Assembly: GCA_944392795.1 (NCBI GenBank)
Contig: CALXXX010000037.1
Location: 601-64,600 of the forward strand
Source: an uncultured Alphaproteobacteria bacterium
Lineage (GTDB): Bacteria; Pseudomonadota; Alphaproteobacteria; CAAHEQ01; UBA3637
Reading direction: 5' to 3'
Length of the DNA stretch: 64,000 bases
Of the stretch, positions 5,954 to 42,741 are shown piece by piece. Under the pieces are notes generated by a model, which saw only the letters and a list, made by a program, of their open reading frames with translations, was not told where the DNA came from and made no database searches. A program made the translations under genes and the position numbers. Each line of letters opens with the position of its first letter. Within the stretch, counting starts at the first letter, position 1.

Positions 5954-7396
5954 ATGATGAGTAAACACTGTTCGCCTTTTTGGATTTTTGCTTTCTTTAC
6001 ATTCTTCCTTTTATCTTCAGTTCCAACCCAAGCTCAAATTTGTTTGTTTGACTGTGATGAAATTACAACTGCACAGGCTCAAGAAATTGCAAAGGAAAAT
6101 GATTGGCGAACAACTTATCAAAATTATATTAAGGATGCCCATTGTACAAATTGTTACAACAATGCAATGAAGATTCAGTATCAAGCGAGATTACAAGAAA
6201 ACCAACGAGCCGAAAATTGTAAAAACAACTGCCAAGGAACTGAAGAAGAAATCAGAACCTGCCAAGAGGTCTGCGATCAAGAACAACGTATTTCTGAAGA
6301 AAACCATCGACAATTATTACAAGAAACTCAAAGAGTCGTAGAAAATGTAGCAGCTGTTAATGAAGCAAATTGTGCAGGTTTGAATGCAATGTATGAAGAG
6401 GTGTCAGCGCGTATGACGGCTTTTGCGGCCTTCAACTGGGCAGCTGCTTTTAGCAGTCAATCAACGGTCGGAGTACCCTTGTTTTCCAAAATTTTAAACA
6501 GCTATAATCAAGATGGTTCCTATGGATGTTGGTTTTGCCCATTATTTGATGTAACTTTCGATATTGTTAACGATCTAGCAACCAACTTTTACGAACAAAT
6601 GAGGACGATATTCCTTAGTGCTTTAATGGTTGGCGGCGTTGCTTGGCTTTGTTGGATTGTATTGCAGTTCTTTTTAGTTGTCCACGGCGCCAACGTTGGT
6701 GAGTTTATGACAACACTTTTAAAAGCATTCTTCAGACTGATGTTTGGAGCGGCTTTATTATGGGCTCCCTCTTATGAAGTATTTGATTTTATTCTTTCTC
6801 CCGTTGTTTCCTTTGCTTCAGGTCTCAGCACAGAGCTTATGGGTACGGCAGGTTTCATAACACCGACAGTCACAACTGTAACAGATATTTATGATAATGG
6901 ATGTGCTGATACAACAGTCTCAACACAACAGAACCAAATGAATTTATGCAGCACGACAGATCCAAATGATAGCCGTTTTGTTTCTAATGGACAACCTAAA
7001 GCTTTATCATCCACAGTTTATGATGGCCTTTCTTGCGTCATAAAAACAGCTAGTTTAAATTTTGTCCTAGGATTAGCTATTGGAGCAACATTCCTGGTCC
7101 ATTCTTTGACAGCAGGTCCTTTAGGATTGCCTCATCTTGGCATGCTGTTAATAGCCCTTTTACAAATTATCGGATATTTAATTTTGTTTATTGTTGTTCC
7201 GTTTAAATTCATTGACATCTTGGTTCGTCTCGGCTTTGTTGCTATTTTATTACCCCTTTATATTCTATTGGCCGTTTTCCCCGCAACAATAGGTTATACA
7301 AAAAAAGCTTGGGATTTACTGATTTCCTGTTTATTTAGTTTAATTGTGTTAAGTATTCTGATTGTTATTTGCCTACGGTTAATCGCAGGAGTATAA
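5954..7396 (+). CDS. VirB6/TrbL-like polytopic inner-membrane protein (paralog 1) with Cys-rich N-terminal periplasmic domain
   Basis: Signal peptide (…SSVPTQAQI), a Cys-rich 150-aa N-domain, then multiple TM helices. Shares the conserved blocks GCWFCPLFD and FKFIDILVRLGFVAILLPLYILLAVFPATIGYTKKAWDLLIS with the two downstream paralogs. AAGAGG RBS upstream. Confidence 0.55.
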   Translation: MMSKHCSPFWIFAFFTFFLLSSVPTQAQICLFDCDEITTAQAQEIAKENDWRTTYQNYIKDAHCTNCYNNAMKIQYQARLQENQRAENCKNNCQGTEEEIRTCQEVCDQEQRISEENHRQLLQETQRVVENVAAVNEANCAGLNAMYEEVSARMTAFAAFNWAAAFSSQSTVGVPLFSKILNSYNQDGSYGCWFCPLFDVTFDIVNDLATNFYEQMRTIFLSALMVGGVAWLCWIVLQFFLVVHGANVGEFMTTLLKAFFRLMFGAALLWAPSYEVFDFILSPVVSFASGLSTELMGTAGFITPTVTTVTDIYDNGCADTTVSTQQNQMNLCSTTDPNDSRFVSNGQPKALSSTVYDGLSCVIKTASLNFVLGLAIGATFLVHSLTAGPLGLPHLGMLLIALLQIIGYLILFIVVPFKFIDILVRLGFVAILLPLYILLAVFPATIGYTKKAWDLLISCLFSLIVLSILIVICLRLIAGV

Positions 7397-7399
7397 GAG

Positions 7400-8452
7400 G
7401 TGAAAATTATGTTCAAAAATAAAATTAAAGTCTTTACTTTAACGCTCTCTATTTTTTTGATATCAATAGCTCCTGTTTTTGCACAAAGCACACAATCTCA
7501 GACAGCTTCAAATAATCGATTGCAACAAATTCTTAACTTTTTAATGGCCGATCGCGTAAAAGAAGCTGCTGATTTAATGAATTTTACAACTTCATCTATT
7601 TTTATCACTGTCGGAGGACTGATTATTAGTATCGCCCTTCTGTTTATGTCCTCTTCTATCGGCGAATCTTTAGGTGCTGCACCGACGAGTGGAGGCAGCA
7701 AAACCGGCTTTATGTTAGGAGCTGCCGCAGGTGGAGCCATCTTAAAAGGTGGTTCAAAATTAAGTGGAGCAACCTCCGACTGGTTTAAAAGTCGAAAAAA
7801 TAATACGGGAACGAGTACTACGGCAGGAGGAAAAGGTTCTGTCGGTGGACAATCAAGTAAAGGGGCCGGAGCTCCGAATCAATATAAATCTAATTCAAAC
7901 ACTGGAGCAGAAGGAAATAATCAAGGAGGAAGTGGAGGAACAGATACCGCTACTGCGAACACAGGCAATTTTTCTGTTAATCCGCAAGCCTCTTCGGATT
8001 CTAATTTTTCTGTTACAAATGCTCAAATTTCCGGTCTTTCATCACAGAACAAATCAAATATAGGCTCAACCCCTGGAACAAACAAGAATTCATCATCCCC
8101 TGCGACAACAGAGGCACAAAAGACTTCTCCAGCTTCTGCAGATAGTGCAATGAATTCAGCATCGACAAATACAGGAGACAGCAATAAAACAGAAGGACAA
8201 AATACATCAAATACCTCTTCAACAATTCAATCATCCCCTGTCTCATCCATGCCAAAACCAAGCAGCATGTCTGCTCCAAAAGGAATCGATGCACCAACAT
8301 CTATGGCGGCTCCTAGTGGAATGGCGGCTCCTAGTGGAATGGCAGCCCCTGCCGGAATGGCGGCTCCTTCCAGCCCTCGTTCCTCAGAAGAGATTTCTTC
8401 TAAAATAAAAGAAACTGCTCAAAAAGAAACAGGAGAAATTACAGGGAAATAA
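7400..8452 (+). CDS. Secreted or membrane-anchored Gly/Ser/Thr/Ala-rich protein, 350 aa (possible pilin-like N-terminus plus low-complexity tail)
   Basis: Signal peptide ending VFAQ, one hydrophobic helix (SIFITVGGLIISIALLFMSS), then about 250 aa of G/S/T/N low complexity ending in tandem MAAPSGMAAPSGMAAPAGMAAPS repeats (DNA repeat 8297-8370). It starts 4 nt after the upstream VirB6-like stop. Confidence 0.45.
   Translation: MKIMFKNKIKVFTLTLSIFLISIAPVFAQSTQSQTASNNRLQQILNFLMADRVKEAADLMNFTTSSIFITVGGLIISIALLFMSSSIGESLGAAPTSGGSKTGFMLGAAAGGAILKGGSKLSGATSDWFKSRKNNTGTSTTAGGKGSVGGQSSKGAGAPNQYKSNSNTGAEGNNQGGSGGTDTATANTGNFSVNPQASSDSNFSVTNAQISGLSSQNKSNIGSTPGTNKNSSSPATTEAQKTSPASADSAMNSASTNTGDSNKTEGQNTSNTSSTIQSSPVSSMPKPSSMSAPKGIDAPTSMAAPSGMAAPSGMAAPAGMAAPSSPRSSEEISSKIKETAQKETGEITGK
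8297..8370 (+). repeat. Tandem 21-nt direct repeats (about 3.5 copies) encoding MAAPSG units
   Basis: aatggcggctcctagtgg aatggcggctcctagtgg aatggcagcccctgccgg aatggcggctcc seen directly. Confidence 0.6.
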
Positions 8453-8459
8453 GCCACAA

Positions 8460-9716
8460 ATGAAAAAGGTTTTTTCATATCTAAAAAATAAACCTTTCTG
8501 CCTCTTGATAATGGCGGCTGTCTTATTTTTATCCTCTTGCGGCATGGATGTTGAAGTTGATATCGTCAAAGCTCAGGAGGATATGAATTCGACAAAAAGC
8601 TGTTGGACTTGTCAATTGTTTACTATTGTTTTCAACACAGGAGCATCTATTGCTACAAATGCTTTTGATAGTATAAAAAATTTAGCTTGGGGACTTTTAG
8701 CGGTTGGATTAGTCATCTATCTTTGTCTACGAACACTTTCTTTATTCTTAAGCATGCGGCTTCCTGATCTGCCGAATTATTGGATTTCTATCACAACCAA
8801 GCTAGGAAAAGGAGGCCTTGTTTCCATTTTTTTATTAAGTTCCAGTCATATGTGGGAACTGATTAATACAATTATAGCACCGATTATTACGGTTTTTGTT
8901 CGTCTCTCATTTATGATTTTAAATTTAAATTTTCCAACTCGTGTTGCTACATCAACAACGGTTGGCTCTACTTTTATAAGCGGACCAGGCTTACCTGCTG
9001 AGATCGGAGCACAATTAGAAGATTTGGTCTATCGTTCAACTGTTGCCTTAAATATTGGACGAGCTTTAGGCCTTCGAATGATGATGCTTTCTGATTTTAC
9101 CGGCTTCATTATCGGTTTAATCATTATTGGAATTTTCTTTATGCTTTTACTTTTCTTCCCAATGTATTTAATTGATGCATTGGTGCGAATTATATTTGTT
9201 ATTATCCTTTTTCCTATCTTATTGGTCGCTTGGGTTTTCTCGGTCACAGAAAAATACTTTAAAACAGCTTGGAACATGCTGATCGGCGGATTAGCTCAAT
9301 TATTTATTTCCTGTGTTTTTATTGCTTTACTTGTCTCGACAATAGAAGCCTTTACTCAAATGCGTGGTTATAACATTATTCTTAATCCAACCTATCAAAA
9401 CACGAACCCTGATGTTTTACGTGAAATGTCCCGAATGTCCATCTCGGCCTTATCCTTTATCGTGATGGCTTTCTATTTATATAACTTATCAAAGCACCTA
9501 ACTGAAATTTCAGGCTTTTTAACAAACTCATCTCAAACTTCCATGGTCGGGGATTTTACCCGTCGGCTCAAACAATTAGCAATTGCTGCTGTTGCAGCAA
9601 CTATAGCTATTGTTGCCGCTTCTGTCGGTGCTGCACCAGTAACGGCTGTTATGAAAAAGAAAGCTTTGGATGAAGCGCAAAAAGCAGCTAAAAGTGATAA
9701 AAATAGCGGAGGGTAA
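8460..9716 (+). CDS. VirB6/TrbL-like membrane protein (paralog 2), lipoprotein-type signal
   Basis: N-terminal LFLSSCG lipobox-like signal, then polytopic. Conserved CWTCQLF and LIDALVRIIFVIILFPILLVAWVFSVTEKYFKTAWNMLIGG blocks shared with paralogs 1 and 3. Confidence 0.55.
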   Translation: MKKVFSYLKNKPFCLLIMAAVLFLSSCGMDVEVDIVKAQEDMNSTKSCWTCQLFTIVFNTGASIATNAFDSIKNLAWGLLAVGLVIYLCLRTLSLFLSMRLPDLPNYWISITTKLGKGGLVSIFLLSSSHMWELINTIIAPIITVFVRLSFMILNLNFPTRVATSTTVGSTFISGPGLPAEIGAQLEDLVYRSTVALNIGRALGLRMMMLSDFTGFIIGLIIIGIFFMLLLFFPMYLIDALVRIIFVIILFPILLVAWVFSVTEKYFKTAWNMLIGGLAQLFISCVFIALLVSTIEAFTQMRGYNIILNPTYQNTNPDVLREMSRMSISALSFIVMAFYLYNLSKHLTEISGFLTNSSQTSMVGDFTRRLKQLAIAAVAATIAIVAASVGAAPVTAVMKKKALDEAQKAAKSDKNSGG

Positions 9717-9718
9717 AA

Positions 9719-12238
9719 ATGTTTAAGCATATTTCAATCACTCTTCTGCTTATTTTAGTATTAGCTTTAATCTATTTTTTCCCAGGAGCAGATTACATCC
9801 CTTATATTTGGATTGTTGCTTTACCACTCATTATTATCCTTCTAGGACTTGGGATTTATAAAACATACACCTTAAAAAAAGGAAAATATATTTTATTTTT
9901 AAGCTTGTTTATTTCTTCATTTCTTCTAGCCGCTCCTTCAATTGCACAAGCTCAAACATATCGAATTTCACAAGAACGTCTTCAAGAAGCTCAGTTAATC
10001 ATAGAAGAAGTAGAGCGCATTCCTCTTAATGACAGAACACGAGAACAACAAGAAAAATTAGAAAAAGCTCGAGAGGATTATACACAAGCAATGAAAGAGC
10101 GCTTAGGTCGTGGCTCAAAAGCGTGCCCGACACCTAAACAACTTTTGTTGGAATATCAAGAAGATTGTTGGACTTGTGATATTGTTTATTTGATCGTTGA
10201 AAGTATGGATAAAGTCATTACAACTTTCTATAAACAATTAGAAGAACAGCATCTTCCTTTAATATTATTAGCTATTGGCGGCTTATTTTGGCTTGTTTTT
10301 CGAACACTCCGCCTTTTCCTAACATGGGGAATGGGTGATATTGGTTCATATTTTACAGATGTTTTAAAACGCATTTTATTGTTGATTTTTTTATCTGCCA
10401 TTTTATGGACACCTTATAAAGATGTATTAAACATTTTTATTACGCCTATTTTTACTTTTTCTGCGGGTCTAACTCAATCCTTGAGCTCTATTGAAGCATC
10501 AATAGAAACACCACAAAGTACGCCTCAGGTTAATGTTGAAATCTATCGTTCTGTTTTAGGAACACAACCACCTCAGCCGACTTATTGTCAAAACTTAAAT
10601 GCAGAATCAGCCTCTCCAACTGATGAACGCGTATCTCGTGTCTTACAATATCAAGCCAGCATTCAAGACAGAGCTCTACCAACATCAGTGCGAGATTCTC
10701 TCCTCTGTATCGTTCAAAGTATTTATCAAATCACTGTTCCTCCAACTGTCGCCGGACAATATTTAATGTGTATGTCTCAAACCCAAGGAGCGATTTCTTT
10801 CCCAACACGCTTAACCCCCATTATCAAATTACCAGACTTTTCTGTTTGGTTTGCTTCTTGGTTCATTATAGCTGCTTTTTTCCTATTATCTGCCGTTTTC
10901 CCATTCTTCTTAGTCGATTCTTTTTTCAGAATAGGTATTGTTCTGTTATTAATGCCATTCTTTATCGTAACCGCGGCTTTTCCTTCTACACGTGCTTATA
11001 CTAAAAGAGCTTTTGATGTCCTCATTTCGTCTCTTATTAATTTCTTTATGATTTCTTTGATTTTAGTCTTACTGATACAAATGTTCTATACATTAATGGG
11101 ACCGACGGCAACGACATTAGCAGAACTTCTAGCAAAACAAGATTACTTAGGTCTAAGTAATACTTTCGGATGGGCTGGGGGCGGTCGTATGATTTTTGCA
11201 AGTATTGCTATGCTTTTAATCGGTTTTTACCTACTTTCTACTACAGCAAGAATGATTCAAATGATGACGGGTATTGGTTTATCTCAAGGTGGAGGTGTCG
11301 CAGCTTTATTTGCCCCAGTTGGATTGGCTGGAGCAGGTCTGAGTTTAACTAAAGAAATTTATGATGAACCTTGGGAACCATCTAAACATAAAGCCTATCT
11401 ATTAAGAATGGATGCTCAAAGGCGTGGCTATACAGATGCAAAAGGCGTTCGGCATGGCCTCAGCAAATATCATACATTAGAAGCGCGTTCTCGCGGGATG
11501 CGTCGTTTTATCCCTAAAGCTGCCGATAAAGCTGGAAATAAAGTAGAAAAAACCTCTAATACAAGCGCTTTATTAACTGAAAAAGGAATAAAACTGACAG
11601 GAAAAGAAATTAATCAAGGAACTAAGTTCATTTTCTTTAACAGCGGACATTTCTTAGGGCAATTTGGAATGAAAATGATAGGAACAACTGCTTCTGCCTG
11701 GTATCTTGCACCGTTTACTCTTGCTGCTGCAACTGTTGCTTTTACCGGAGCAGGCATCATGTATGCTCTGGGCGGAACCTTTATTATGATAAATAATGTT
11801 GCTAACTATGTCATTCGAAAAACTGCGAAAAAAACGATTCAAACAACCGGAAAAGTAACTTCTTATGCGATAAAAAAATCTGCACGAGCAATTGCATATA
11901 ATAAATATTTAACAAAAACAATGGCTTTAGTTCAAAAGCCTGTTCAATTTACAACTTCTTTAATTGCTATTCCTATCACCTCTATTTATACACGTACATT
12001 AGAACAAGATCCAACTCGTAGAGCTCAACAAACTGCTTCCGATATAAAACAACGGGCGAATCGAATTGCAAGGCCTGAAGATACACATACTTGGCGTGAT
12101 CTTTTCGATGAAATTCGTGAAAATGCACATCAAACGCGTTCAAATTTGGATGACAACATGCGAGCTAAAAACAAACATTCTAAAGATTTTGTCAAGAGTA
12201 ATTGGCGCTTTATTCGCCGAACTGGACGCTTCTTCTAA
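9719..12238 (+). CDS. VirB6/TrbL-like membrane protein (paralog 3), 839 aa with long C-terminal extension
   Basis: Start overlaps the upstream stop (TAAAAATG context). Conserved CWTCDIVY and FFLVDSFFRIGIVLLLMPFFIVTAAFPSTRAYTKRAFDVLIS blocks. Extra C-terminal TM helices and a basic tail, as seen in extended VirB6 paralogs of Rickettsiales-type systems. Confidence 0.55.
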   Translation: MFKHISITLLLILVLALIYFFPGADYIPYIWIVALPLIIILLGLGIYKTYTLKKGKYILFLSLFISSFLLAAPSIAQAQTYRISQERLQEAQLIIEEVERIPLNDRTREQQEKLEKAREDYTQAMKERLGRGSKACPTPKQLLLEYQEDCWTCDIVYLIVESMDKVITTFYKQLEEQHLPLILLAIGGLFWLVFRTLRLFLTWGMGDIGSYFTDVLKRILLLIFLSAILWTPYKDVLNIFITPIFTFSAGLTQSLSSIEASIETPQSTPQVNVEIYRSVLGTQPPQPTYCQNLNAESASPTDERVSRVLQYQASIQDRALPTSVRDSLLCIVQSIYQITVPPTVAGQYLMCMSQTQGAISFPTRLTPIIKLPDFSVWFASWFIIAAFFLLSAVFPFFLVDSFFRIGIVLLLMPFFIVTAAFPSTRAYTKRAFDVLISSLINFFMISLILVLLIQMFYTLMGPTATTLAELLAKQDYLGLSNTFGWAGGGRMIFASIAMLLIGFYLLSTTARMIQMMTGIGLSQGGGVAALFAPVGLAGAGLSLTKEIYDEPWEPSKHKAYLLRMDAQRRGYTDAKGVRHGLSKYHTLEARSRGMRRFIPKAADKAGNKVEKTSNTSALLTEKGIKLTGKEINQGTKFIFFNSGHFLGQFGMKMIGTTASAWYLAPFTLAAATVAFTGAGIMYALGGTFIMINNVANYVIRKTAKKTIQTTGKVTSYAIKKSARAIAYNKYLTKTMALVQKPVQFTTSLIAIPITSIYTRTLEQDPTRRAQQTASDIKQRANRIARPEDTHTWRDLFDEIRENAHQTRSNLDDNMRAKNKHSKDFVKSNWRFIRRTGRFF

Positions 12239-12350: not shown

Positions 12351-13292
12351 ATGGAAGAAATTATATTCCCAAATCAAATTCGGATGATACGACGGACACG
12401 TGGCAAAACAATGAAAGAAATTGCCGGTATCTTAGGGGTCAGTTTATCCGCTATTAGTAAAATAGAAAAAGGTTATCGCCGTATTGATGAAGAGCAATTA
12501 GATAAAATTTCATCTTTTTTGGACTGTCCTAAGGAAAGTATTTTTGTTTATGAAAAAACTTCACAACCTGAAGTTTTGCAAGCTTGGCAAAAAGAACAAG
12601 ACCGCCGGAAACAAATTAACGAAAAAAGTGGTTTAAAAACATTGGGCGCTGGACTGAGATATATTCGCGGAGAAAAGATGCTCACATTGCAAGATGTAGC
12701 CAAAGGAGCCGGCTTAACGCTTTCGGTTTATCATCGCATTGAAATGGGACAGCGAGAGGTAACAGAAGAACAATTTAAAAAAATTGCACATGCTCTTGGT
12801 TTTACAACAGAAACATTACAGCTTCAAATCTATGAATTAGATATGGCCGGAACTTTGCAAGAGTTCAAAAAAACAGGAAAACCAGGTATTTTTCATCCTA
12901 AAGGTGGGTATAATGATCTTCCTCTCAAGTCTTTAAGTATTAATAAAAAAATACTGGTTCATCAGGCGACTGTAAATAATGATACGTTTGTTCTCAATGA
13001 TCAAACATTTGAAATGGATGCTTCTCTTCCTTTTGCTCAAGAATTAACCGGAATAAAAGTGAATACTTCTTTATCTTTCGGTAGTTTTTCTGCCACATAT
13101 GTTTTGGCTACTCATGCCCCATTAAAAGAAGGAGAACCTGTCTTATTTCAACAAAAAGAGAATATTTTCTTACCCGGAACTTTTTCTCAACAAAACAATA
13201 AAACTGTATTTAAGGCCTCAGATGGAACAGAGCAGATCTTAACAGAAAATGATTTAAAAAAGCTTTCTAAAATAGTTGCTCTTTATTTTTAA
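12351..13292 (+). CDS. Tandem helix-turn-helix (XRE-family) transcriptional regulator with C-terminal domain
   Basis: Two HTH_3-like segments: TMKEIAGILGVSLSAISKIEKGYRRID and LTLQDVAKGAGLTLSVYHRIEMGQREVT. AAAAGGAG RBS 8 nt upstream of the ATG. Confidence 0.7.
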   Translation: MEEIIFPNQIRMIRRTRGKTMKEIAGILGVSLSAISKIEKGYRRIDEEQLDKISSFLDCPKESIFVYEKTSQPEVLQAWQKEQDRRKQINEKSGLKTLGAGLRYIRGEKMLTLQDVAKGAGLTLSVYHRIEMGQREVTEEQFKKIAHALGFTTETLQLQIYELDMAGTLQEFKKTGKPGIFHPKGGYNDLPLKSLSINKKILVHQATVNNDTFVLNDQTFEMDASLPFAQELTGIKVNTSLSFGSFSATYVLATHAPLKEGEPVLFQQKENIFLPGTFSQQNNKTVFKASDGTEQILTENDLKKLSKIVALYF

Positions 13293-13304: not shown

Positions 13305-14162
13305 ATGAAAAAAATGGCGCTTGATGTCCTTTCTTGGAAAAAAGAATTTTTAAAACGAAAAAAGTCCTCAAATGAGGAGGCTGAATCAACAGCTCAACGG
13401 CTTATTAATATTTATCGTCAGTTATACACATTAGGACCAGAAGCCAATCAACGATATAATGCCATGCTGTTAAAAGATGCAACATTAGAGGTCCAAATTG
13501 CCCTTAAAAATATACCAGGTGGAGAAGAAATCCGCGATTATTTGAATTTCCTAAAGCATCAAGAATTGTCCGAAGAAGAAGAAAGTCAAGCGCTCCATGA
13601 AGGAAATGAGGCTTTACAAATAAAAAATGATCTACCAGCTCCAGAAGAAATGTCTCCATTATGGGAAACTTATGGAATGCCGACTAGAGGGGGAATATCA
13701 GAACCTGCTTCTATAACCTATACGAAATCTGATGCCGAAAAAATAACAGAACAAATTATCTCTTTGGAAGCTGTTGTGCATGAAACTCAGAAACAAAATA
13801 TTTTATCTATGATAGAAACCCAAAATGAACGCATTTTAGAAATATTAAGATATATGGTCATTGACTCTGATGTAGATAAAATGCATGAAAATTTGAAAAA
13901 CAGTATTGAAAAGGTAAAAGAAGTTCAAAAAGAAAATACTGAAAAAATTACAGATGCCTTAAAAAAAGAACCTTTACTAACTGAAATCAAAGAAAAATTA
14001 ACGGCGCTTTTCGATAAACAAGAAGCTGAAGCTATTGCAGAAAACGAAGCAAAAGAAGCTGCACGTAGAAAAGAAAACAAGCCAGTCGATAAATTTCGAA
14101 AGATGAAACAACCTACAAAATTTTCTGTTCATTTAATTGAAGATGAAAAGGCTGATTTTTAA
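13305..14162 (+). CDS. Hypothetical acidic coiled-coil protein, 285 aa
   Basis: Clean ORF 12 nt after the regulator. Glu/Lys-rich helical sequence. No signal peptide. Confidence 0.5.
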   Translation: MKKMALDVLSWKKEFLKRKKSSNEEAESTAQRLINIYRQLYTLGPEANQRYNAMLLKDATLEVQIALKNIPGGEEIRDYLNFLKHQELSEEEESQALHEGNEALQIKNDLPAPEEMSPLWETYGMPTRGGISEPASITYTKSDAEKITEQIISLEAVVHETQKQNILSMIETQNERILEILRYMVIDSDVDKMHENLKNSIEKVKEVQKENTEKITDALKKEPLLTEIKEKLTALFDKQEAEAIAENEAKEAARRKENKPVDKFRKMKQPTKFSVHLIEDEKADF

Positions 14163-14221: not shown

Positions 14222-15712
14222 ATGAATATTGATCCAACGTTGCAGCCACTTATAGAAGCTCTGATTGCTTATCAAGAAAATCAAGAAACTTTAATGCCTT
14301 TAGTTGAAAAAGCTCAAGATATTTTAGGCCCTGACTGGACAAGCTTTATTCAAACATCGTTAGATACGATGACAGGCATCGATCAGCCGACAAAAGAGAT
14401 GCTGAAGAAAAAAGCAGATCACGCTATTCATTATTATGGCGCATTAGCTGCTTGGGAAGAAGCTTATCAATATATCAATGCGCCTCAATCTGTCAATAAT
14501 ATGCAGCTGATTGAACGTATTCCAACTTTAGAATACTGGCTTTCCTTGTTCGGAGACGAAGGAACAAAAGTTATTAACCAATTAAAGGATTTACTGAATG
14601 ATGTCGATCAAAATGAAGCGACAGAACCTGTAGAAGCTATCTCTGAAATTGTAAATGAAGAACAGAAAGATAATCAATCTTTCGTTCATATCATGGAACA
14701 AACTGATGAAAAAAAGGATGAAGAAAATTCCCTTCCAGCCAGTGAACATACTTCAGAGCCTCAAGAAATAATCGAACCAGAAACTGTTACGCCACTTGTA
14801 GATGAGCTTTCTTCAACGCAAGAAAATACTTCAGAAGACCAAAAAGATCAAAGATTAGAAGATAATGTCTCTGTAGATACTCAGCAACTACAGAATGAAA
14901 TTGCATTTGAGAAAAATGAAAAAGAAACACCAGATATAGAAAATGGGCTCTCTGAGGAAATTCACTTAAATGAAATGCCAGCCCTTCCAGATGTCCCTCT
15001 AGATCAAGTTATTGAAGAAAACACGGACAAACAAGAAGCATTTTCACAACAATCCATAGACGAAAATATCTCTTCAGAGGAAACAACTACAGAATCAGAA
15101 GTAATTGAAATGATGTCTCCAAAAGAAATTCCGGAGACGCCAGAAATTTTAGAAAATGATCCTAATTTACAAATTCCTAAAACGAAAAATTGGGAAATAT
15201 CTAATTTTATGAAGCTTAAAAATTTATATGAAGATGCAACTAACTGGATTAGCGCTCATTGCGTTCGATTAAATAATATGGATAAAACAGAATATCCTTA
15301 TTATGGTTTCATCGTCGATCTCATGAAAGAGTTAAAAGACAATATACAAAACTTATTAGAAAATCAACTGTTAGAAGAAGTGATTGATACTGAAGTCCCA
15401 GGCGGACGCGAAGGTATGCAAAGCCTTCTAGACGCTTTAGAAAAAGAATTAGAGGATTTGCCAGAAAATTTAAAACCAATTGAAGAAAATACAAATATCG
15501 ATCCTCATAAAATCTTAGGAGAACTGGATACCAGTTCTGAAAAAGAATATATCGGTCCGGCACCCGATGGCTTCGAATTAATTGAAGATCCTTATGAAGT
15601 CTCGCCGGAAAAAATTATCGAAGATTATAAAAAAACAGAAGAAGAAACAAAAGTCGATTTTGATTCACTAAATGTAACCTCTTCTTCAGGTCAAGAACAG
15701 AAAAAGGAATAG
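14222..15712 (+). CDS. Hypothetical highly acidic (Glu/Asp-rich) protein, 496 aa; candidate T4SS substrate or chaperone-bound effector
   Basis: Long ORF with an extremely acidic low-complexity middle region and no TM or signal peptide. Its stop overlaps the next gene's start. Confidence 0.5.
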   Translation: MNIDPTLQPLIEALIAYQENQETLMPLVEKAQDILGPDWTSFIQTSLDTMTGIDQPTKEMLKKKADHAIHYYGALAAWEEAYQYINAPQSVNNMQLIERIPTLEYWLSLFGDEGTKVINQLKDLLNDVDQNEATEPVEAISEIVNEEQKDNQSFVHIMEQTDEKKDEENSLPASEHTSEPQEIIEPETVTPLVDELSSTQENTSEDQKDQRLEDNVSVDTQQLQNEIAFEKNEKETPDIENGLSEEIHLNEMPALPDVPLDQVIEENTDKQEAFSQQSIDENISSEETTTESEVIEMMSPKEIPETPEILENDPNLQIPKTKNWEISNFMKLKNLYEDATNWISAHCVRLNNMDKTEYPYYGFIVDLMKELKDNIQNLLENQLLEEVIDTEVPGGREGMQSLLDALEKELEDLPENLKPIEENTNIDPHKILGELDTSSEKEYIGPAPDGFELIEDPYEVSPEKIIEDYKKTEEETKVDFDSLNVTSSSGQEQKKE

Positions 15713-17173
15713 GTGACGCTGATGACAAACACAACTACTCACATCAAAAAAACAAGCCTTTTATTCGTTGGAGCTCTTGCGTTAATAACTGTAGCTACCC
15801 CTTGTCTAGCCCAAATTAACCAAACAGCTTTTCCTTGCAATGCAGAAGCTTGTTCTAATCCGAACATGATGAATATTTCTACAGAAATGCAAACTTCTGA
15901 ACCATGTTCTGTTACACAGCAAAATTTAGGTCCTATCATTATGCCTGTTATCATTCAACCAGCTCAAGTTGTTAAAGCATACCCCACTCCACAATCTGGC
16001 TCGCCTATTGACCGTTTCAATGAACAGCAACAGATGAACAGGCAATTACAAAAAGGAAATGATATATCTGTCATGGACTTATCTTCAGCAACGACATTAA
16101 ACATTGAAACACCTATTCGATGTGATATTCCTTTCCCAACAAAGCAAATTATTTCCAATATTCCTATGAATTCAGATGACTTCAAAATGACTCGTCTTGA
16201 TAAGAATGATCCTCTTCCAAGATATGAAGTAAACGGATATACTTTTACCAATCAACCTTTGGATTTAGCAATTCAAAATCTGGTGACAGAAGCAGGTATT
16301 CACGTCTTTTCAGATGATGGGTTATATCCTGAAATTTCAGCTGAAGATCTTAGAGGAGAATTATCTGATGTCATAGAAGAACTTGCTAATGCAGGAGATG
16401 CCTATTTCAGATATGATGCTATGAAAAAGAAGCTTTATTTATCTAGATGGGCTCGCTTTGAGTTATCTGTTCCAGGTGGACGTGTCGGTTTATTTGCTGT
16501 TCTAGATGCTCTACGTGGCGCCGGCATTACAAATGTTCAACCAGATTTTGGAACAAATACTCTTTACTTCCGAGCTAACACAGAAGTTCAATCAACCGTT
16601 GAACGGCTAATTGAATACTTAAAAGAAGATCCCAGACTTTTAATGATGGATGTTAAAGTTTATCGATTGACTGAACGCCCAAATGCCTCCGAATTAAATT
16701 GGCAAACGATTATCCAAAACTTTGGCGTAAAGCGTGTCAATATGTCGGTTGGAGGTATTATGGGACGTATGATCGTCACTGGCCATCAAAAACAAAATTA
16801 TTCGTTAATTGATAGTCTACAAAAACAAGTGAATGTTAATTTAGTCTCTGAAGGTGTGGCTATTATGCCAAATGCATGGAAAGTTCGATTTGATATTGGT
16901 CAATGTGCACCAGTCCAAACGCCTGAAAGAGATCTATCCTTATTGCTGCAAAGCAATATTCAATCACCAGATCGTATTGAAACGAATATTTCATTAGATA
17001 CAATCAATGGTGAGATTACTTCTTTCTACTCTTTTTATAATATCGATGATAACCTAAGTATTATTGGAATTCCAGGTAGCATCTTTAATAAAAATTGGAA
17101 AGGTGTTGAATATTTAATTACGATGCAGCCCCGTATTTTGCGCCTTGTAAAAGAAGGAGAACAGAATGACTGA
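15713..17173 (+). CDS. Secretin-like outer-membrane protein (divergent; CpaC/RcpA-size)
   Basis: Signal peptide (ALALITVATPCLAQI). An N-domain-like segment (MMDVKVYRLTERPNASELNWQTIIQNF). The C-terminal IIGIPGSIFNKNWKGVEYLITMQPRIL resembles the secretin-domain end (…IPxLGxLF…ELLIFITPRIV). The start may be GTG at 15713 or ATG at 15722. Confidence 0.4.
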   Translation: MTLMTNTTTHIKKTSLLFVGALALITVATPCLAQINQTAFPCNAEACSNPNMMNISTEMQTSEPCSVTQQNLGPIIMPVIIQPAQVVKAYPTPQSGSPIDRFNEQQQMNRQLQKGNDISVMDLSSATTLNIETPIRCDIPFPTKQIISNIPMNSDDFKMTRLDKNDPLPRYEVNGYTFTNQPLDLAIQNLVTEAGIHVFSDDGLYPEISAEDLRGELSDVIEELANAGDAYFRYDAMKKKLYLSRWARFELSVPGGRVGLFAVLDALRGAGITNVQPDFGTNTLYFRANTEVQSTVERLIEYLKEDPRLLMMDVKVYRLTERPNASELNWQTIIQNFGVKRVNMSVGGIMGRMIVTGHQKQNYSLIDSLQKQVNVNLVSEGVAIMPNAWKVRFDIGQCAPVQTPERDLSLLLQSNIQSPDRIETNISLDTINGEITSFYSFYNIDDNLSIIGIPGSIFNKNWKGVEYLITMQPRILRLVKEGEQND

Positions 17174-17762
17174 AGCCCCTAAACCGGTATTTAAAGCACC
17201 GAATATTCCGTCTCAGAAAAAAAACGAAGTAACACCTCCCTCTGGAGTGTCTGCTCCAGTAGCGTCAACAGGGTTAAAAGCAGCAGCTCCTGCAATTCCT
17301 GCTTATGAGAAAAAAGCCTCTCAACAAAATACAAAAAATACTCAAGGTGTATATGATGATAATTTCGCGGCTCAATTAGGATTACCTCCAACAATTTTAC
17401 AAACAAAAGTAATGGCTGGTATTTTAGGAGCCGTTTTATTCTTCGGTATAGTCTTGGGCTGTACGATGTCTGGTAACGGAGGACAAACTCATACACAGGG
17501 CTTAACTGGGGTCGTCCTTAATCCAGAAGTTCCTGCAAACAGACAACGGTGTGGAATCGCAGAAAGAACTCAAGGCTGTGTTCTTTATCTTCAAAATCCA
17601 TCTCGTCGTGATCGTGAAGCCCGTGACTTTTACCAAGAAGCTTCTCGTATGACTGGTGTCGCCAGCTATACTATTGAACTCGGAAATATTGAATATGCAA
17701 CAAGTATTATTCGACCCGGTTGGATAGCACAAATTAATATTCCTCCGACAGGAGCTCGTTAA
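17166..17762 (+). CDS. Hypothetical membrane/lipoprotein, 198 aa, translationally coupled to the secretin-like gene
   Basis: Overlaps the upstream gene by 8 nt. The Pro/Ala-rich N-region is followed by a hydrophobic helix ending in a VLGC lipobox-like motif. An alternative start at 17412 would give a 118-aa lipoprotein. Confidence 0.4.
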   Translation: MTEAPKPVFKAPNIPSQKKNEVTPPSGVSAPVASTGLKAAAPAIPAYEKKASQQNTKNTQGVYDDNFAAQLGLPPTILQTKVMAGILGAVLFFGIVLGCTMSGNGGQTHTQGLTGVVLNPEVPANRQRCGIAERTQGCVLYLQNPSRRDREARDFYQEASRMTGVASYTIELGNIEYATSIIRPGWIAQINIPPTGAR

Positions 17763-17767
17763 AAAAA

Positions 17768-17796
17768 AGCACATCTTAAAGATGTGCTTTTTTATC
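17768..17796. terminator. Bidirectional rho-independent terminator between convergent genes
   Basis: A-run, then GCACATCTT AAA GATGTGC (perfect 9-bp stem), then T-run. It lies between the + strand gene ending at 17762 and virB11 ending at 17805. Confidence 0.6.
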
Positions 17797-17804
17797 CTTA
17801 AAAT

Positions 17805-18794
17805 CTATGTAATCGCTGTCACAGCACGAATATTGCCGTTACGATTAATCTGAACGACCCGCAGCTTATCCCTCATTTCTCGCAGCGTTTTATCTCTATC
17901 TATTGTTGGTGTTGTTCTCATAATACGAGCAACAAATGCTTTATACGCCTCTTCAGGATTCTCCGCATGAATCGTAGCAAAACAGTTTTCATGACCAGAG
18001 CCCATTAATTCCCAAATAGCACTGGCATTTGATGTTGAAATCTCTCCTCCGATAATCGCATCAGGAGTAAAACGAACGACTAAGTCAATAACACGTGGAT
18101 AAGTAAATCCATTCGTTTGATCTGTACGAGGTAAAACAATATGCACACGATTCTTATGTGGAACAATAAGTTCCCGCGTATCCTCAATCGTTAAAATACG
18201 TTTATGCTCATCCACTAATTTAATCATATTATTCAAAAATGTCGTTTTACCTGTTGCAGTTCCACCGCTGATAAGAATATGCTCTCCTTTACGTATTGAA
18301 AGCAACAAGCGATCATAAGGATCATCAGGATCTTCTACATTTGCTAACTTACTTAATGGACGTAGACGTTCCCCTTGCTCCAAATTAAAGTCTTTAAACT
18401 CTATTCCTACATCTTCTTTATAAACACGAATAGCAAGAGCAACACCACCCGTTAAATCATCATTATCATACATGACGTTACGACCACTAATACCCGTAAA
18501 ACGATGACCTCCGGGAAGTGTAGCATAAACAACCGGAGTTCCTTCTGTCGGTTCAAAAGAATAATCATAACTGTTTGCTATAATATAAAGAATATTATTT
18601 AAATATTCTCGTGTTAGCTTAGGATCAATCTGTTCAACCCACGGATATGCTCTTTTACCTCGCAAACGAAGCCAAATAGAACCTGGATGATCTACTGCAA
18701 CCTCTTCTACATTATCTTGTGTATACCAATAGGATAAAGGTCGTAATGCCGACTCCAAAACTTTATAGGTTTCGGAAATGGATAACTCTGGCAT
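17805..18794 (-). CDS. virB11: VirB11-family type IV secretion ATPase
   Basis: 329 aa. Walker A ISGGTATGKTTFLN and the conserved VirB11/CagAlpha-like fold signature (…RVIDLVVRFTPDAIIGGEI…). It is the last gene of the virB8-virB11 operon. Confidence 0.85.
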   Translation of the reverse strand: MPELSISETYKVLESALRPLSYWYTQDNVEEVAVDHPGSIWLRLRGKRAYPWVEQIDPKLTREYLNNILYIIANSYDYSFEPTEGTPVVYATLPGGHRFTGISGRNVMYDNDDLTGGVALAIRVYKEDVGIEFKDFNLEQGERLRPLSKLANVEDPDDPYDRLLLSIRKGEHILISGGTATGKTTFLNNMIKLVDEHKRILTIEDTRELIVPHKNRVHIVLPRTDQTNGFTYPRVIDLVVRFTPDAIIGGEISTSNASAIWELMGSGHENCFATIHAENPEEAYKAFVARIMRTTPTIDRDKTLREMRDKLRVVQINRNGNIRAVTAIT

Positions 18795-18806
18795 TTGCGG
18801 CTCCTT

Positions 18807-38312: not shown

Positions 38313-39508
38313 TATTTTTTCTCTATAACGGCTTTTTTCCTTAAATCTTGAAGCTTCTCATTCGATTTTTGCTCCATTTTTTCCATTTCAAGTTGCTGTT
38401 TTATAACCTCGAGTTTAGGCAAAACAGAAACAACTCGTTTATCACATTTCATTAAAAATAAATCGAAATCTTCTGCTTCAATAGGACCTATGATTTTTTT
38501 CATCGGAGCATCTTTTAGTAACTCATATAATTGATCCGGCATCCGAGGAACAGGCATTTCAGGCATCAGACCAGACCCTTTTAATCCTTCACGCATTGCT
38601 AAAGATGTAAAAGATTGAGGATTTCCATCTGCCTTGGCAAGCTGATCCGAAAAACGAGCCGCTTCTCCCTTAGGAAGAAGAAACTGCGCAACACTCCAAG
38701 CTTCAACTTCTGTTGATGTCAACGCTTTTTGTTTATCTCTCATTAAAATCAAATAATAACCTTCTTTGCCTTCTATGGGCTTTGACATCTGTCCGGGTTC
38801 CATTTGTTCTAAAATGCCATCAATAGCCTTTTCTAAACTTCCTTTTGAAACCCAACCTAAATCGCCTCCTATCGAAGCAGTTTTTCCTTTAGAAAATTGA
38901 ACTGCCAATTCAGGAAAAACCTCGCCTTTTACAATGCGATCGAACAAACTTTGAGCTTGTTCTTCTGCGGCTTTTTTATCTGTACCAAAAGGAACATAAA
39001 TCTCTGCCAACAAATAACTCGGCTTCATCATCTCTTTTTTTATCTTTTCTAGTCGAGCTTTCACTTCCTGTTCCGTTACAACCGGAGGTTTCTCATTTTC
39101 TGAACGAAGTACCTTTAGCCAAAGTATATCAGACGTCATCTGATTTTCTAAGGTATCGAAAGAAATATCTGATTCCTTTAACAGGCGTTGAAGAGAACCA
39201 GGTTCCATTCCATTTTGCTTTTCCAAAAAAGAAATCCCTTCTTCTACTTCACCTTCTTCTAAAATAATCCCTTTACTGGCTGCTTCCTGCTTTTTTACTT
39301 TTTCTAAAATAAGCGTCTCAAGAACTTGAGCTTTAGTTTCCTCTGTGACTGGCGTCTTCATCAGAGCATGCATCATCTTTGATCGCATATCAACATCATA
39401 ATCCGATATTACTTCATCATTTACTGTTGCAATAATCTCAAACGCCCGAGCTGAAAAGGATAGACTTAAACTGAGCCCGATTATAGCAAAAATTATTTTT
39501 TTCATCAT
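38312..39508 (-). CDS. surA: SurA-like periplasmic chaperone / parvulin-type peptidyl-prolyl isomerase
   Basis: Signal peptide, a SurA N-domain and a parvulin domain (…GGDLGWVSKGSL…GYYLILM…). It lies downstream of lptD as in conserved lptD-surA synteny, and overlaps rsmA by 1 nt. Confidence 0.8.
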   Translation of the reverse strand: MMKKIIFAIIGLSLSLSFSARAFEIIATVNDEVISDYDVDMRSKMMHALMKTPVTEETKAQVLETLILEKVKKQEAASKGIILEEGEVEEGISFLEKQNGMEPGSLQRLLKESDISFDTLENQMTSDILWLKVLRSENEKPPVVTEQEVKARLEKIKKEMMKPSYLLAEIYVPFGTDKKAAEEQAQSLFDRIVKGEVFPELAVQFSKGKTASIGGDLGWVSKGSLEKAIDGILEQMEPGQMSKPIEGKEGYYLILMRDKQKALTSTEVEAWSVAQFLLPKGEAARFSDQLAKADGNPQSFTSLAMREGLKGSGLMPEMPVPRMPDQLYELLKDAPMKKIIGPIEAEDFDLFLMKCDKRVVSVLPKLEVIKQQLEMEKMEQKSNEKLQDLRKKAVIEKK

Positions 39509-42500: not shown

Positions 42501-42741
42501 ATAAACGCTGATACACAAACAAAAGAACAATAAAAAATGCAAGTGGTGTGATAATCGCAATAAAATTCGGTAAAACCAAAAGTGTCAATTGAACAAATAA
42601 ATGAACAGAGACTCCTTTATTAACAATCCAATCAATCATCCGTAAGCTTTGAGATAACCAGATAATTCCCGTCATACCCAAAGCTATCAGCAAAAAACCG
42701 ATGACTAATTGTTTTAAAATATATTTATTTAATGTTTTCAT
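39505..42741 (-). CDS. lptD: Single 1078-aa ORF containing an LptG-like permease (N-terminal ~360 aa) fused in-frame to an LptD/OstA-like LPS-assembly protein (C-terminal ~706 aa, internal ATG at 41622)
   Basis: The N-part has YjgP/YjgQ permease topology (MKTLNKYILKQLVIGF…, six TM helices). After a KQSPQQKRSKKM linker comes an LptD signal peptide (MISLLFLVFFFLAFSVEAAEP), the OstA N-domain (…TGNVIIKQEGSTFRADKIEYD…) and a long beta-barrel region. No stop codon separates the two parts, because the ORF track gives one continuous protein. Confidence 0.7.
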   Translation of the reverse strand: MKTLNKYILKQLVIGFLLIALGMTGIIWLSQSLRMIDWIVNKGVSVHLFVQLTLLVLPNFIAIITPLAFFIVLLFVYQRLLADRELIVMKAVGMSPWQLAKPGFYMSLILVVLGYCLTLWLVPYSVTHFKELRFKIRNDLAHVVIQEGEFNNLPSNITIYVRSFKPTGELEGILIHDGRDPEKRIVMVAQNGLYVTGEEPRIVMHQGRRQEYNRRTGIFSSLSFDQNTMVLEESRRNNERSAGEEELPLVRLLMAKSTDPRISQTQFREYKVEAFKRLTQPLYSLVYLMIGLLPLLLGYYNRRGQNGRIYMSIGAVILIQSMALGFENLSEKNLFFLFLMGLNILVPILSGMIILKRGYFLKEQSPQQKRSKKMISLLFLVFFFLAFSVEAAEPQFIADTTLHKDAPAPFEADTISYNEKTGILTATGNVIIKQEGSTFRADKIEYDQSKDTVYATGNVVLTRPDGVQLFSDEADLTGDIKEGLIKAVHMKLADGSVFEAQSVARTDKGNITDFKDVFFTPCTYCSPEKPLWSLRAGQVLHNYQQKEFVYKHAFLNLKGVPVFYWPYLEYPDFQVKRKTGFLTPALASSTEMGSGFDLPFFWAISDSQDLYINPTISFSHVPLVQGRYRGLYQESGLTLDFSGTQNDDDHNNEGHIKAYYEYDITDRLRFRGTYFRVSDDTYFRRYPIDNVDDQAPWIQSDAALEHFGENAYAFIKMYAFQNLRADVKNSSMPKVPQVNYEYVTRPLWNGLYSVSQVNGAGVYRHEKPESTRLSYLQALRLPYISSIGAVINTEASIRFDGYSIQTVEDETKNTNRVYPNLSMEVRYPLMQQGENYSQVLEPIVMGVWSPNSSNKNIPNEDSLDYEFDDTNLFSANRYAGYDRVETGARLNYGMQWTLYGPKNISVSALFGQSYRFRDDNSVAEGAGFENHFSSYVGHLNMKLKDFGMNYRFRLNQDNLSQEMSEVSLYAGRAPFKVTLGYFYMQASQENKVKNYLKDREEIFGQINSRLTPSWSAYGYYRYDLAVDGGPIEAGGGLQFENECITLLFSAEKEFTKDRDYKGDTSFYVRMILKTLGAV

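What the first reader, a model, noticed from the sequence alone, without database searches (positions are those of the whole stretch)
15713..17762. Orphan secretin-like gene plus small membrane/lipoprotein partner sitting between the two T4SS loci
The 486-aa protein has a signal peptide, an N-domain-like stretch and a C-terminus (IIGIPGSIFNKNWKGVEYLITMQPRIL) that resembles the terminal motif of secretin domains. Its size matches CpaC/RcpA-class secretins. It is 8-nt-overlapped with a 198-aa protein carrying a lipobox-like VLGC, which could act as a pilotin. No pilus ATPase (CpaF/GspE/PilB), prepilin peptidase or T3SS gene is nearby. Secretins are not normal parts of T4SSs. A secretin embedded in a T4SS accessory region would be novel, or this is a remnant of a Tad/T2SS locus co-opted as an outer-membrane conduit.
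Basis: inference. Interest (0 to 1): 0.6.

Follow-up and report, generated by a model that had tools for sequence, protein, structure and literature searches.

The report
Divergent secretin linked to T4SS genes
The 486-aa gene encodes a real but highly divergent, compact secretin that curated models miss; with a small inner-membrane partner it forms a conserved module that in gut Alphaproteobacteria sits beside type IV secretion genes rather than pilus or type II/III secretion genes.

Summary
Both ORFs exist as described, with an 8-nt overlap. Pfam PF00263 does not hit the 486-aa protein or any of 41 relatives. Deeper tests do support a secretin. The AlphaFold model (pLDDT >90 for residues 140-480) matches only secretins at the top (BfpB, PilQ, InvG, GspD, pIV). 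An exhaustive profile search reaches proteins of which 38/40 carry PF00263. hhalign of the C-terminal domain alone gives 98% probability, E=1.7e-13 (reversed control 0.5%). The layout is signal peptide, linker, N0, N3-like domain, then a ~175-aa secretin domain. This is closest to type IVb-pilus lipoprotein secretins, not CpaC/RcpA.

The 198-aa protein is not a pilotin. Its "VLGC" is internal and not conserved. It has a Pro-rich tail, one membrane helix and a periplasmic domain with two invariant cysteines.

The two genes co-occur in 84/84 related loci from uncultured gut or rumen Alphaproteobacteria. They usually follow an HTH regulator gene and two soluble unknown proteins. T4SS genes flank 31 of 38 fully flanked loci. 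In 12 genomes the module follows virB10-virB11 on the same strand. No pilus genes were seen nearby. The role in the T4SS and any pore activity are inferred, not shown.

The parts
15713..17173 (+). SEC486: divergent secretin-family protein (probable true start ATG 15722)
   Evidence: ORF. 92 homologs, all unnamed and without Pfam domains. AF2 model pLDDT 79, >90 over residues 140-480. The top 31 Foldseek PDB hits are all secretins, E 2e-11 to 8e-4. hhalign to canonical secretins gives 99.95% probability, E=1e-38.
15713..15811 (+). Signal peptide (residues 1-33, likely SPase I site CLA|Q). About a third of relatives carry a lipobox instead.
   Evidence: Hydrophobic segment at residues 14-32. N-termini of 91 homologs: 28 have a strict lipobox, the rest look like SPase-I substrates.
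15812..16081 (+). Variable, disordered linker (residues 34-123)
   Evidence: pLDDT <50. Not conserved and of variable length in the alignment.
16082..16222 (+). Conserved pre-N0 segment (residues 124-170: NIETPxRC...DPLPRYEV, invariant C137, two short strands). Candidate equivalent of the C-terminal, partner-binding part of the BfpB LG domain.
   Evidence: Invariant columns. Secondary structure. Aligns to the pre-N0 region (DPLP motif) of lipoprotein secretins. BfpB LG domain is described in PMC12531336. The equivalence is inferred.
16226..16450 (+). N0-like domain (residues 172-246)
   Evidence: Beta-alpha-beta-beta-alpha-beta-beta elements. Foldseek matches to PilQ N0 (4ar0), the EscC periplasmic domain and XcpQ N0-N2. 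hhalign of the N-terminal part gives E=1.3e-24.
16451..16627 (+). N3/N1-like ring-building domain (residues 247-305)
   Evidence: Beta-alpha-beta-beta-alpha elements. Weak Pfam Secretin_N match, E=0.015, residues 209-303. hhalign.
16628..17152 (+). Compact secretin domain (residues 306-480, about 175 aa, ~10 predicted strands, invariant C398, no S-domain)
   Evidence: hhalign of this domain alone against 39 canonical secretins: 98% probability, E=1.7e-13, 176 columns spanning 247 template columns. Gaps of ~10, 17 and 34 columns include the 'RPGD.ILLGGI' segment. The reversed control gives 0.5%. PF00263 itself does not hit.
17166..17762 (+). [not shown]
   Evidence: Alignments A2/A3. AF2 model shows the TM helix and a small alpha/beta domain with pLDDT ~80. 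Found next to SEC in 84/84 loci, spaced from an overlap to ~30 bp. No Pfam, NCBIfam or PDB relative.
12351..13292 (+). HTH313: regulator with two HTH_3 domains, a conserved member of the module
   Evidence: Pfam HTH_3 E=4.5e-25, two stretches. Present in 74/84 loci, adjacent in either orientation.
13305..14162 (+). X285: soluble helical protein with a conserved ~80-aa N-terminal domain; length 200-1060 aa in relatives
   Evidence: No TM segment. Present in 64/84 loci. Alignment A6. No Pfam or PDB relative.
14222..15712 (+). Y496: very acidic soluble protein (116 D+E vs 36 K+R) with a conserved C-terminal core (invariant C347); 165-700 aa in relatives
   Evidence: No Pfam or PDB relative.
17761..17793 (.). 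Bidirectional intrinsic terminator in the 42-bp convergent gap between Z and virB11: A-run, GCACATCT-TAA-AGATGTGC, T-run
   Evidence: Read directly from the sequence. The pattern scanner did not list it.
17805..28890 (-). Adjacent T4SS operon: virB11 (17805-18794), giant virB10 (18807-26138), virB9/CagX (26168-27838), virB8 (27931-28695), VirB7-like lipoprotein ORF (~28717-28890)
   Evidence: NCBIfam VirB11 E=2e-40. TrbI domain plus beta-flower repeats in VirB10. CagX and VirB8 Pfam hits. Lipobox ORF.
5954..12238 (+). Upstream T4SS-like genes: three polytopic VirB6-like paralogs (5954-7396, 8460-9716, 9719-12238) and a Ser/Thr/Pro-rich protein (7400-8452)
   Evidence: Mutual blastp E from 1e-39 to 1e-8. 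Weak TrbL/VirB6 PF04610 match, E=0.006, on the 839-aa protein. Found upstream of the module in ~45 loci.

Best explanation
[not shown]
For: Fold: the top 31 PDB matches are all secretins, best BfpB at E=2.4e-11, from a model with pLDDT >90 over residues 140-480. Sequence bridge: the family profile finds full-length proteins at E from 1e-20 to 1e-9. Of 40 tested, 38 carry PF00263, and NCBIfam calls them MshL, GspD or PilN types. Their profile best matches BfpB, E=2.6e-36. hhalign over the whole protein gives E=1e-38. The C-domain alone gives 98%, E=1.7e-13, and the N-domains give E=1.3e-24. Reversed controls give 0.2-0.5%. Export: all 91 full-length homologs have signal peptides and 28 have lipoboxes. 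Partner: SEC and Z are adjacent in 84/84 loci, overlapping or <=30 bp apart. Z has one TM helix and two invariant Cys in its C-domain. T4SS link: 31 of 38 loci with full 10-kb flanks have VirB6-like and/or virB10-virB11 genes, in three different arrangements. In 12 genomes the order is virB10-virB11-X-Y-SEC-Z on one strand; in L064 the gaps are 114, 50, 4 and 13 bp. No pilus ATPase was found in the window or in ~1.4 Mb of flanks. In contrast, a canonical relative (L086) sits two genes from a PilB/MshE-type ATPase. BfpB shows the same LG-N0-N3-secretin layout without an S-domain, plus a dedicated partner (PMC12531336).
Against: No curated model recognises the protein. The secretin domain is roughly 70-100 aa shorter than in BfpB and the other canonical relatives. 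It lacks or compresses the hallmark '...GD.ILLGGI...' segment, so a gated double barrel is not assured. Seven of 38 fully flanked loci show the module among housekeeping genes with no T4SS gene within 10 kb. The module always carries its own regulator, so it is an autonomous unit. The T4SS here already has VirB7-like, VirB9 and VirB10 core parts. Whole genomes could not be searched, so a pilus, Tad or T2SS system encoded elsewhere is not excluded. Z has no detectable similarity to GspC, PilP, BfpG or TcpQ.
Confidence: 0.5

Rival explanations
1. It is the outer-membrane channel of a pilus or secretion system (T4P, Tad, competence or T2SS) whose other genes lie elsewhere in the genome. On this view the proximity to T4SS genes is historical or regulatory, not mechanistic.
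For: Secretin genes are often unlinked from the rest of their system (established knowledge, for example hofQ). The nearest canonical relatives serve pili. Seven of 38 loci have no T4SS gene within 10 kb.
Against: The protein is strongly divergent and has a shortened domain, which is unexpected for a standard pilus outlet. T4SS genes are the recurrent neighbours, in three arrangements including an operon-like virB10-virB11-X-Y-SEC-Z order. No pilus gene appears in the window or in 84 flanks.
Confidence: 0.2
2. [not shown]
For: The five genes travel together and can stand alone among housekeeping genes. X and Y are fast-evolving, size-variable and acidic, which resembles effectors.
Against: No ATPase, inner-membrane platform or other energy source is encoded in the module. 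X and Y have no signal peptides. No secretin is known to work without a cognate inner-membrane machine (established knowledge).
Confidence: 0.15
3. It is not a secretin homolog at all. The resemblance is a generic beta-rich fold plus common ring-building alpha/beta domains.
For: PF00263, the NCBIfam secretin models and PDB sequence searches all fail. Global TM-scores to solved secretins are low, 0.12-0.24.
Against: The top fold hits are exclusively secretins from five different systems. HMMER reaches PF00263 proteins at E down to 1e-20. The C-domain alone gives E=1.7e-13 in hhalign and the reversed control fails. Low TM-scores are expected when a monomer model is compared with subunits taken from oligomers.
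Confidence: 0.03

Closest known systems
Type IVb-pilus lipoprotein secretins (BfpB of EPEC, PDB 9u5s; TcpC; PilN of R64, TIGR02520)
   Same: BfpB is the best fold match and the best solved relative of the bridging profile. The domain order is the same: N-terminal linker or LG-like segment, N0, N3, secretin domain, no S-domain. Many family members have a lipobox. There is a dedicated small partner gene (PMC12531336).
T4SS proteins with a secretin-type N0 domain only: Xanthomonas citri VirB7 (XAC2622) and Legionella DotD
   Same: Both are exported, often lipidated T4SS-associated proteins with a disordered N-terminal region followed by an N0 domain that is proposed to form an extra ring (PMC3093366; PMC2951367).
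   Different: Those proteins stop after N0. SEC486 continues with an N3-like domain and a secretin-domain homolog. A separate VirB7-like small lipoprotein ORF exists in this window.
[not shown]
   Different: No sequence or fold similarity to the GspC HR domain was detected. The C-domain is a small alpha/beta fold with only weak, non-significant LysM-like matches.
Conjugation-linked type IVb pili (R64 thin pilus; PAPI-1 pilus)
   Same: This is a precedent for a PilN-type secretin working alongside a T4SS-mediated process (my own knowledge, not tested here).
   Different: Those are complete pilus gene clusters with ATPase, platform, pilins and peptidase. Here only the secretin-like gene and a partner are present.

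Membership tests
Secretin superfamily (PF00263 outer-membrane channels) | C-terminal secretin domain recognised by the curated model PF00263 | tested here: not met
   No hit for the window protein at E<=1. 0/41 family members match at E<=0.1. NCBIfam secretin models do not hit either.
Secretin superfamily (PF00263 outer-membrane channels) | Homology of the C-terminal domain to the secretin domain by sensitive methods | tested here: met
   hhalign of residues 306-486 against 39 tier-2 secretin relatives (38/40 of the full set carry PF00263): 98% probability, E=1.7e-13, 176 columns. The reversed control gives 0.5%. HMMER reaches such proteins at E from 1e-20 to 1e-9.
Secretin superfamily (PF00263 outer-membrane channels) | Periplasmic N0 plus N1/N3 ring-building domains before the secretin domain | tested here: met
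   AF2 secondary structure. Foldseek matches to N0-N3 structures. hhalign of the N part gives E=1.3e-24. Weak Secretin_N match, E=0.015.
Secretin superfamily (PF00263 outer-membrane channels) | Export across the inner membrane (Sec signal peptide or lipobox) | tested here: met
   Signal peptides in all 91 full-length homologs. Hydrophobic segment at residues 14-32 in the window protein.
Secretin superfamily (PF00263 outer-membrane channels) | Assembly into a 12-17-mer double beta-barrel with a periplasmic gate in the outer membrane | not testable with these tools
   Only monomer prediction was available. The domain is shortened by ~70-100 residues, including the conserved GD.ILLGGI segment, so the gate and lip may be reduced.
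Secretin superfamily (PF00263 outer-membrane channels) | Genomic association with a T2SS, T3SS, T4P, Tad or filamentous-phage assembly machine | tested here: not met
   None in the 64-kb window or in 84 related loci. The neighbours are T4SS genes. Whole genomes were not searched.
Type IVb-pilus lipoprotein secretins (BfpB/TcpC/PilN, TIGR02520) | N-terminal lipobox (acylated Cys) | tested here: inconclusive
   28 of 91 homologs have a strict lipobox. The window protein has 'VATPC|LAQ', which is more likely an SPase I site.
Type IVb-pilus lipoprotein secretins (BfpB/TcpC/PilN, TIGR02520) | Match to TIGR02520, and a BfpG/TcpQ-type N0-like partner | tested here: not met
   No TIGR02520 hit. Z has no TcpQ (PF10671) hit at E<=1 and no N0-like fold match.
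CpaC/RcpA (Tad) secretins | Closest similarity to RcpA/CpaC and a nearby tad locus | tested here: not met
   The bridging relatives are MshL, GspD, PilN or PilQ types. RcpA (8odn) is among the weakest PDB matches of that profile, E=1.2e-6, against 2.6e-36 for BfpB. No tad genes are nearby.
Pilotins (for the 198-aa protein) | Small outer-membrane lipoprotein with an N-terminal lipobox signal peptide | tested here: not met
   VLGC lies at about residues 95-98, after an 80-aa conserved tail. The Cys is replaced by G, A or K in most homologs. The model shows a TM helix at residues 80-102. No fold match to PulS, MxiM, PilF or TadD.
VirB/rvh-type T4SS (as an accessory component) | Conserved co-location and co-orientation with virB genes across species | tested here: met
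   31 of 38 fully flanked loci have T4SS genes. Twelve genomes have virB10-virB11-X-Y-SEC-Z on one strand.
VirB/rvh-type T4SS (as an accessory component) | Physical or functional dependence on the T4SS | not testable with these tools
   This needs experiments or multimer modelling.

The most novel reading that the evidence does not exclude
Probability: 0.35. Interest if true: 0.8.

Novelty: new variant of a known kind. Interest (0 to 1): 0.66.

Why it matters
Secretins are regarded as the outer-membrane outlets of T2SS, T3SS, type IV and Tad pili and filamentous phages. T4SSs cross the outer membrane with VirB7/9/10 and were known to borrow at most an N0 domain. A conserved, compact secretin family that current annotation models miss extends the sequence space of secretins. 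It is also tied by synteny to T4SS genes in 80 or more species of mammalian gut and rumen bacteria. This offers a minimal secretin domain for structural study. It also gives a testable case of part exchange between pilus and T4SS machines. Finally, it flags an unstudied host-associated clade with an unusual T4SS, including a 2443-aa VirB10 with beta-flower repeats.

Tried and rejected
- Direct Pfam and NCBIfam scans gave only sub-threshold hints: Secretin_N E=0.015 and Amuc_1098 E=0.012.
- PDB sequence searches with the single protein and with the family profile found nothing.
- The fold search for Z gave no significant match. LysM domains recur among the weak hits (E>0.6), which I record as a lead only. 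The PDB profile search for Z found nothing.
- X and Y have no Pfam hit in six orthologs and no PDB relative by profile.
- The promoter scan was uninformative: 20 sites against 17.5 expected.
- Contexts of the intermediate protein P0195 and of P0197 were on contigs too short to define their systems, apart from a PilB/MshE-type ATPase near P0197.
- Literature searches for a secretin-domain T4SS component, or for T4SS biology of this gut lineage, found no precedent.
- I tried to map the deletions onto named gate or lip elements using the BfpB paper, but it gives no residue ranges.
- I considered SEC486 as a VirB7 replacement and rejected it, because a separate VirB7-like lipoprotein ORF exists.
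Full report
**1. Observation**

The window holds ORF 15713-17173 (+, 486 aa, GTG start) and ORF 17166-17762 (+, 198 aa), overlapping by 8 nt. The quoted C-terminal string and the VLGC motif are both present.

The 486-aa protein (SEC486) has an N-terminal hydrophobic segment at residues 14-32, followed by CLA|Q. All homologs align from Met4, so ATG 15722 is the likelier start.

Downstream, on the minus strand, lie virB11 (NCBIfam E=2e-40), a 2443-aa virB10 (TrbI domain plus beta-flower repeats), virB9 (CagX) and virB8. Beyond them are a VirB7-like small lipoprotein ORF and a VirB8 paralog. Upstream are three mutually paralogous polytopic proteins. One has a weak TrbL/VirB6 match at E=0.006.

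Pfam scans of all large ORFs in the 64 kb found no pilus or T2SS ATPase other than VirB11. They also found no platform protein, prepilin peptidase or T3SS gene.

**2. Is the 486-aa protein a secretin?**

PF00263 does not hit. The only signals are Secretin_N at E=0.015 and an NCBIfam pilus outer-membrane protein model at E=0.012, both far below cut-off. Across 41 aligned family members, PF00263 hits none even at E<=0.1. PDB sequence searches with the protein and with the family profile found nothing.

Three independent deeper tests are positive.

- **Fold.** An AlphaFold2 model built on 41 homologs is confident (pLDDT >90) for residues 140-480. Its top 31 Foldseek matches in the PDB are all secretins: BfpB at E=2.4e-11, then PilQ, InvG, GspD/XcpQ/PulD, pIV and isolated N0-N3 fragments. 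Global TM-scores are low (0.12-0.24). This is expected when a monomer model is compared with subunits taken from oligomers.
- **Sequence bridge.** An exhaustive HMMER search of 1.84 billion representatives with the family profile finds a second tier of full-length 400-850-aa proteins at E from 1e-20 to 1e-9. Of 40 tested, 38 carry PF00263. NCBIfam calls them MshL, GspD, PilN or PilQ types.
- **Profile-profile.** hhalign of the two alignments gives 99.95% probability and E=1e-38 over 336 columns. One row (P0195) looked intermediate, so I removed it and split the query. The N part (residues 140-306) gives E=1.3e-24. The C-terminal domain alone (residues 306-486) gives 98% probability and E=1.7e-13 over 176 columns. 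Reversed-sequence controls drop to 0.2-0.5% probability.

The bridging profile's best solved relative is BfpB at E=2.6e-36, while RcpA is among the weakest. SEC486 is therefore a real secretin-superfamily homolog. It is closest to type IVb-pilus lipoprotein secretins, not to CpaC/RcpA.

**3. Anatomy of SEC486**

- Signal peptide, residues 1-33.
- Disordered, variable linker, residues 34-123.
- Conserved pre-N0 segment, residues 124-170 (NIETPxRC...DPLPRYEV, invariant C137, two short strands).
- N0-like domain, residues 172-246.
- N3/N1-like beta-alpha-beta-beta-alpha domain, residues 247-305.
- Compact secretin domain with about ten strands, residues 306-480 (invariant C398), and no S-domain.

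The secretin domain spans 176 aligned columns against 247 in the canonical profile. The gaps are about 10, 17 and 34 columns and include the hallmark 'RPGD.ILLGGI' stretch. In BfpB the equivalent region is about 277 residues. The exact gap placement is uncertain.

Whether a gated double barrel survives cannot be decided here. Every one of 91 full-length homologs has a signal peptide. Twenty-eight have a strict lipobox, while the window protein and its nearest relatives look like SPase I substrates.

This layout mirrors BfpB: lipobox, LG linker domain with two strands that bind BfpG, N0, N3, secretin domain, no S-domain (PMC12531336).

In 23-25 homologs the conserved features are as follows:

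- a Pro-rich, variable N-terminal tail;
- an invariant Lys just before a single hydrophobic helix;
- a C-terminal domain of about 85 aa with two invariant cysteines (C129, C138).

The Cys of 'VLGC' is replaced by G, A or K in most homologs. It also sits inside the helix, after 80 residues, so it is not in a signal peptide. The AF2 model shows a TM helix at residues 80-102 and a small alpha/beta domain at pLDDT ~80.

There is no Pfam, NCBIfam or PDB relative. Fold search gives nothing significant. LysM domains recur among the weak hits (E>0.6), which I treat only as a lead.

**5. Context across genomes**

A scan of species-representative genomes found 107 matches, of which 80 loci were kept. 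Apart from a few evidently mis-binned records, all come from uncultured gut or rumen Alphaproteobacteria of humans, ruminants and rabbits.

tblastn of every window protein against 84 loci gave these counts:

| Window protein | Loci with a match (of 84) |
|---|---|
| HTH regulator | 74 |
| Y496 | 74 |
| X285 | 64 |
| VirB6-like paralogs | 43-48 |
| virB11 and virB10 | 22 |

SEC and Z are always overlapping or within ~30 bp of each other. X and Y vary greatly in length.

The 38 loci with full 10-kb flanks divide as follows:

- 15 have VirB6-like genes only.
- 7 have VirB6-like genes plus a convergent virB11, which is the window's layout.
- 9 have virB10-virB11 directly upstream on the same strand.
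- 7 have no T4SS gene within 10 kb.

In L064 the order is virB10, virB11, X, Y-core, SEC (lipobox LALCSC), Z, with gaps of 114, 50, 4 and 13 bp. In L087 the five-gene module sits among housekeeping genes.

A PilB-like query finds nothing in the ~1.4 Mb of flanks. In contrast, a canonical relative (L086) lies two genes from a PilB/MshE-type ATPase.

**6. Mechanism**

Shown here: homology, domain layout, export, strict SEC-Z pairing, and enrichment and rearrangement-tolerant linkage with T4SS genes.

Inferred:

- SEC486 oligomerises into a periplasmic and outer-membrane ring, as secretins do.
- The ring acts with the VirB/rvh-like T4SS as an extra conduit or scaffold.

N0-only precedents in T4SSs are Xanthomonas VirB7 and Legionella DotD (PMC3093366 and PMC2951367). 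X and Y are soluble, acidic, fast-evolving and without known domains. Their role is open; they could be adaptors or substrates.

**7. Rivals**

- A pilus, Tad or T2SS system elsewhere in the genome uses this secretin. Whole genomes could not be searched, so this is not excluded.
- The module is an autonomous system that is merely co-located with the T4SS.
- It is not a secretin. This is essentially refuted.

**8. Novelty**

Literature searches found no report of a secretin-domain protein in a T4SS operon, nor any study of this lineage's secretion systems. The family has no Pfam or NCBIfam model and no names in source databases.

I rate it a new variant of a known kind. It is a compact, divergent secretin subfamily in a new genomic partnership. 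Function rests on inference.

Noticed in passing
window 18807-26138 (-): The VirB10 homolog is 2443 aa. It has a C-terminal TrbI domain (residues 2094-2287) preceded by ~2000 aa of repeats: 16 Bflower_2, plus Bflower, DUF3659 and an RHS repeat. Relatives are also giant (1576 aa in L064). This recalls CagY but uses different repeats.
   Followed up: partly
window 39505-42741 (-): A single 1078-aa ORF joins an LptF/LptG permease (residues 1-355) in frame to LptD (LptD_N 411-450, LptD 659-1014). An internal signal-peptide-like stretch (KKMISLLFLVFFFLAFSVEA, ~373-392) sits at the junction. There is no stop codon between lptG and lptD.
   Followed up: partly
window 28717-28890 (-) and 28979-29599 (-): A small lipoprotein ORF (MKNILIFAGIAVTALLVAC...) in the VirB7 position lies just upstream of virB8. 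The 206-aa gene beyond it is a VirB8 paralog (blastp E=9e-14). This duplicated-part layout resembles Rickettsiales rvh systems.
   Followed up: partly
window 5954-12238 (+): Three polytopic paralogs (480, 418 and 839 aa) share a CW[FT]C motif. Only one has a weak TrbL/VirB6 match (E=0.006). They are interrupted by a 350-aa Ser/Thr/Pro-rich protein ending in MAAPSG repeats. They are probably very divergent VirB6 paralogs.
   Followed up: partly
window 29609-36038 (-): A run of exported proteins without known domains (546, 251, 249 and 268 aa, coiled-coil-like). It also includes an 823-aa protein with long Ser/Gly-rich repeats and a VirB5-type 'T4SS' domain (PF07996, E=2.5e-6). These may be surface or pilus-tip components of the same T4SS.
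   Followed up: no
window 12351-13292 (+): The module's regulator has two HTH_3 domains plus a ~150-aa C-terminal domain. It scores against the Wolbachia WO male-killing Wmk family model (E=5e-9, far below cut-off), which has the same double-HTH layout.
   Followed up: no
L085 (P0195, 411 aa): A protein intermediate between the target family and canonical secretins. It has no Pfam hit, yet it keeps the family's '...VVPDG...DLDGCA...' motif and a longer secretin-like C-terminus. It could help trace how the compact domain arose. The contig is only 3.4 kb.
   Followed up: partly
loci L011, L021, L023: Contigs carrying this alphaproteobacterial module are labelled 'Lactobacillales' or 'Holdemanella biformis' in their records. 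This is probably mis-binning in those MAGs.
   Followed up: no
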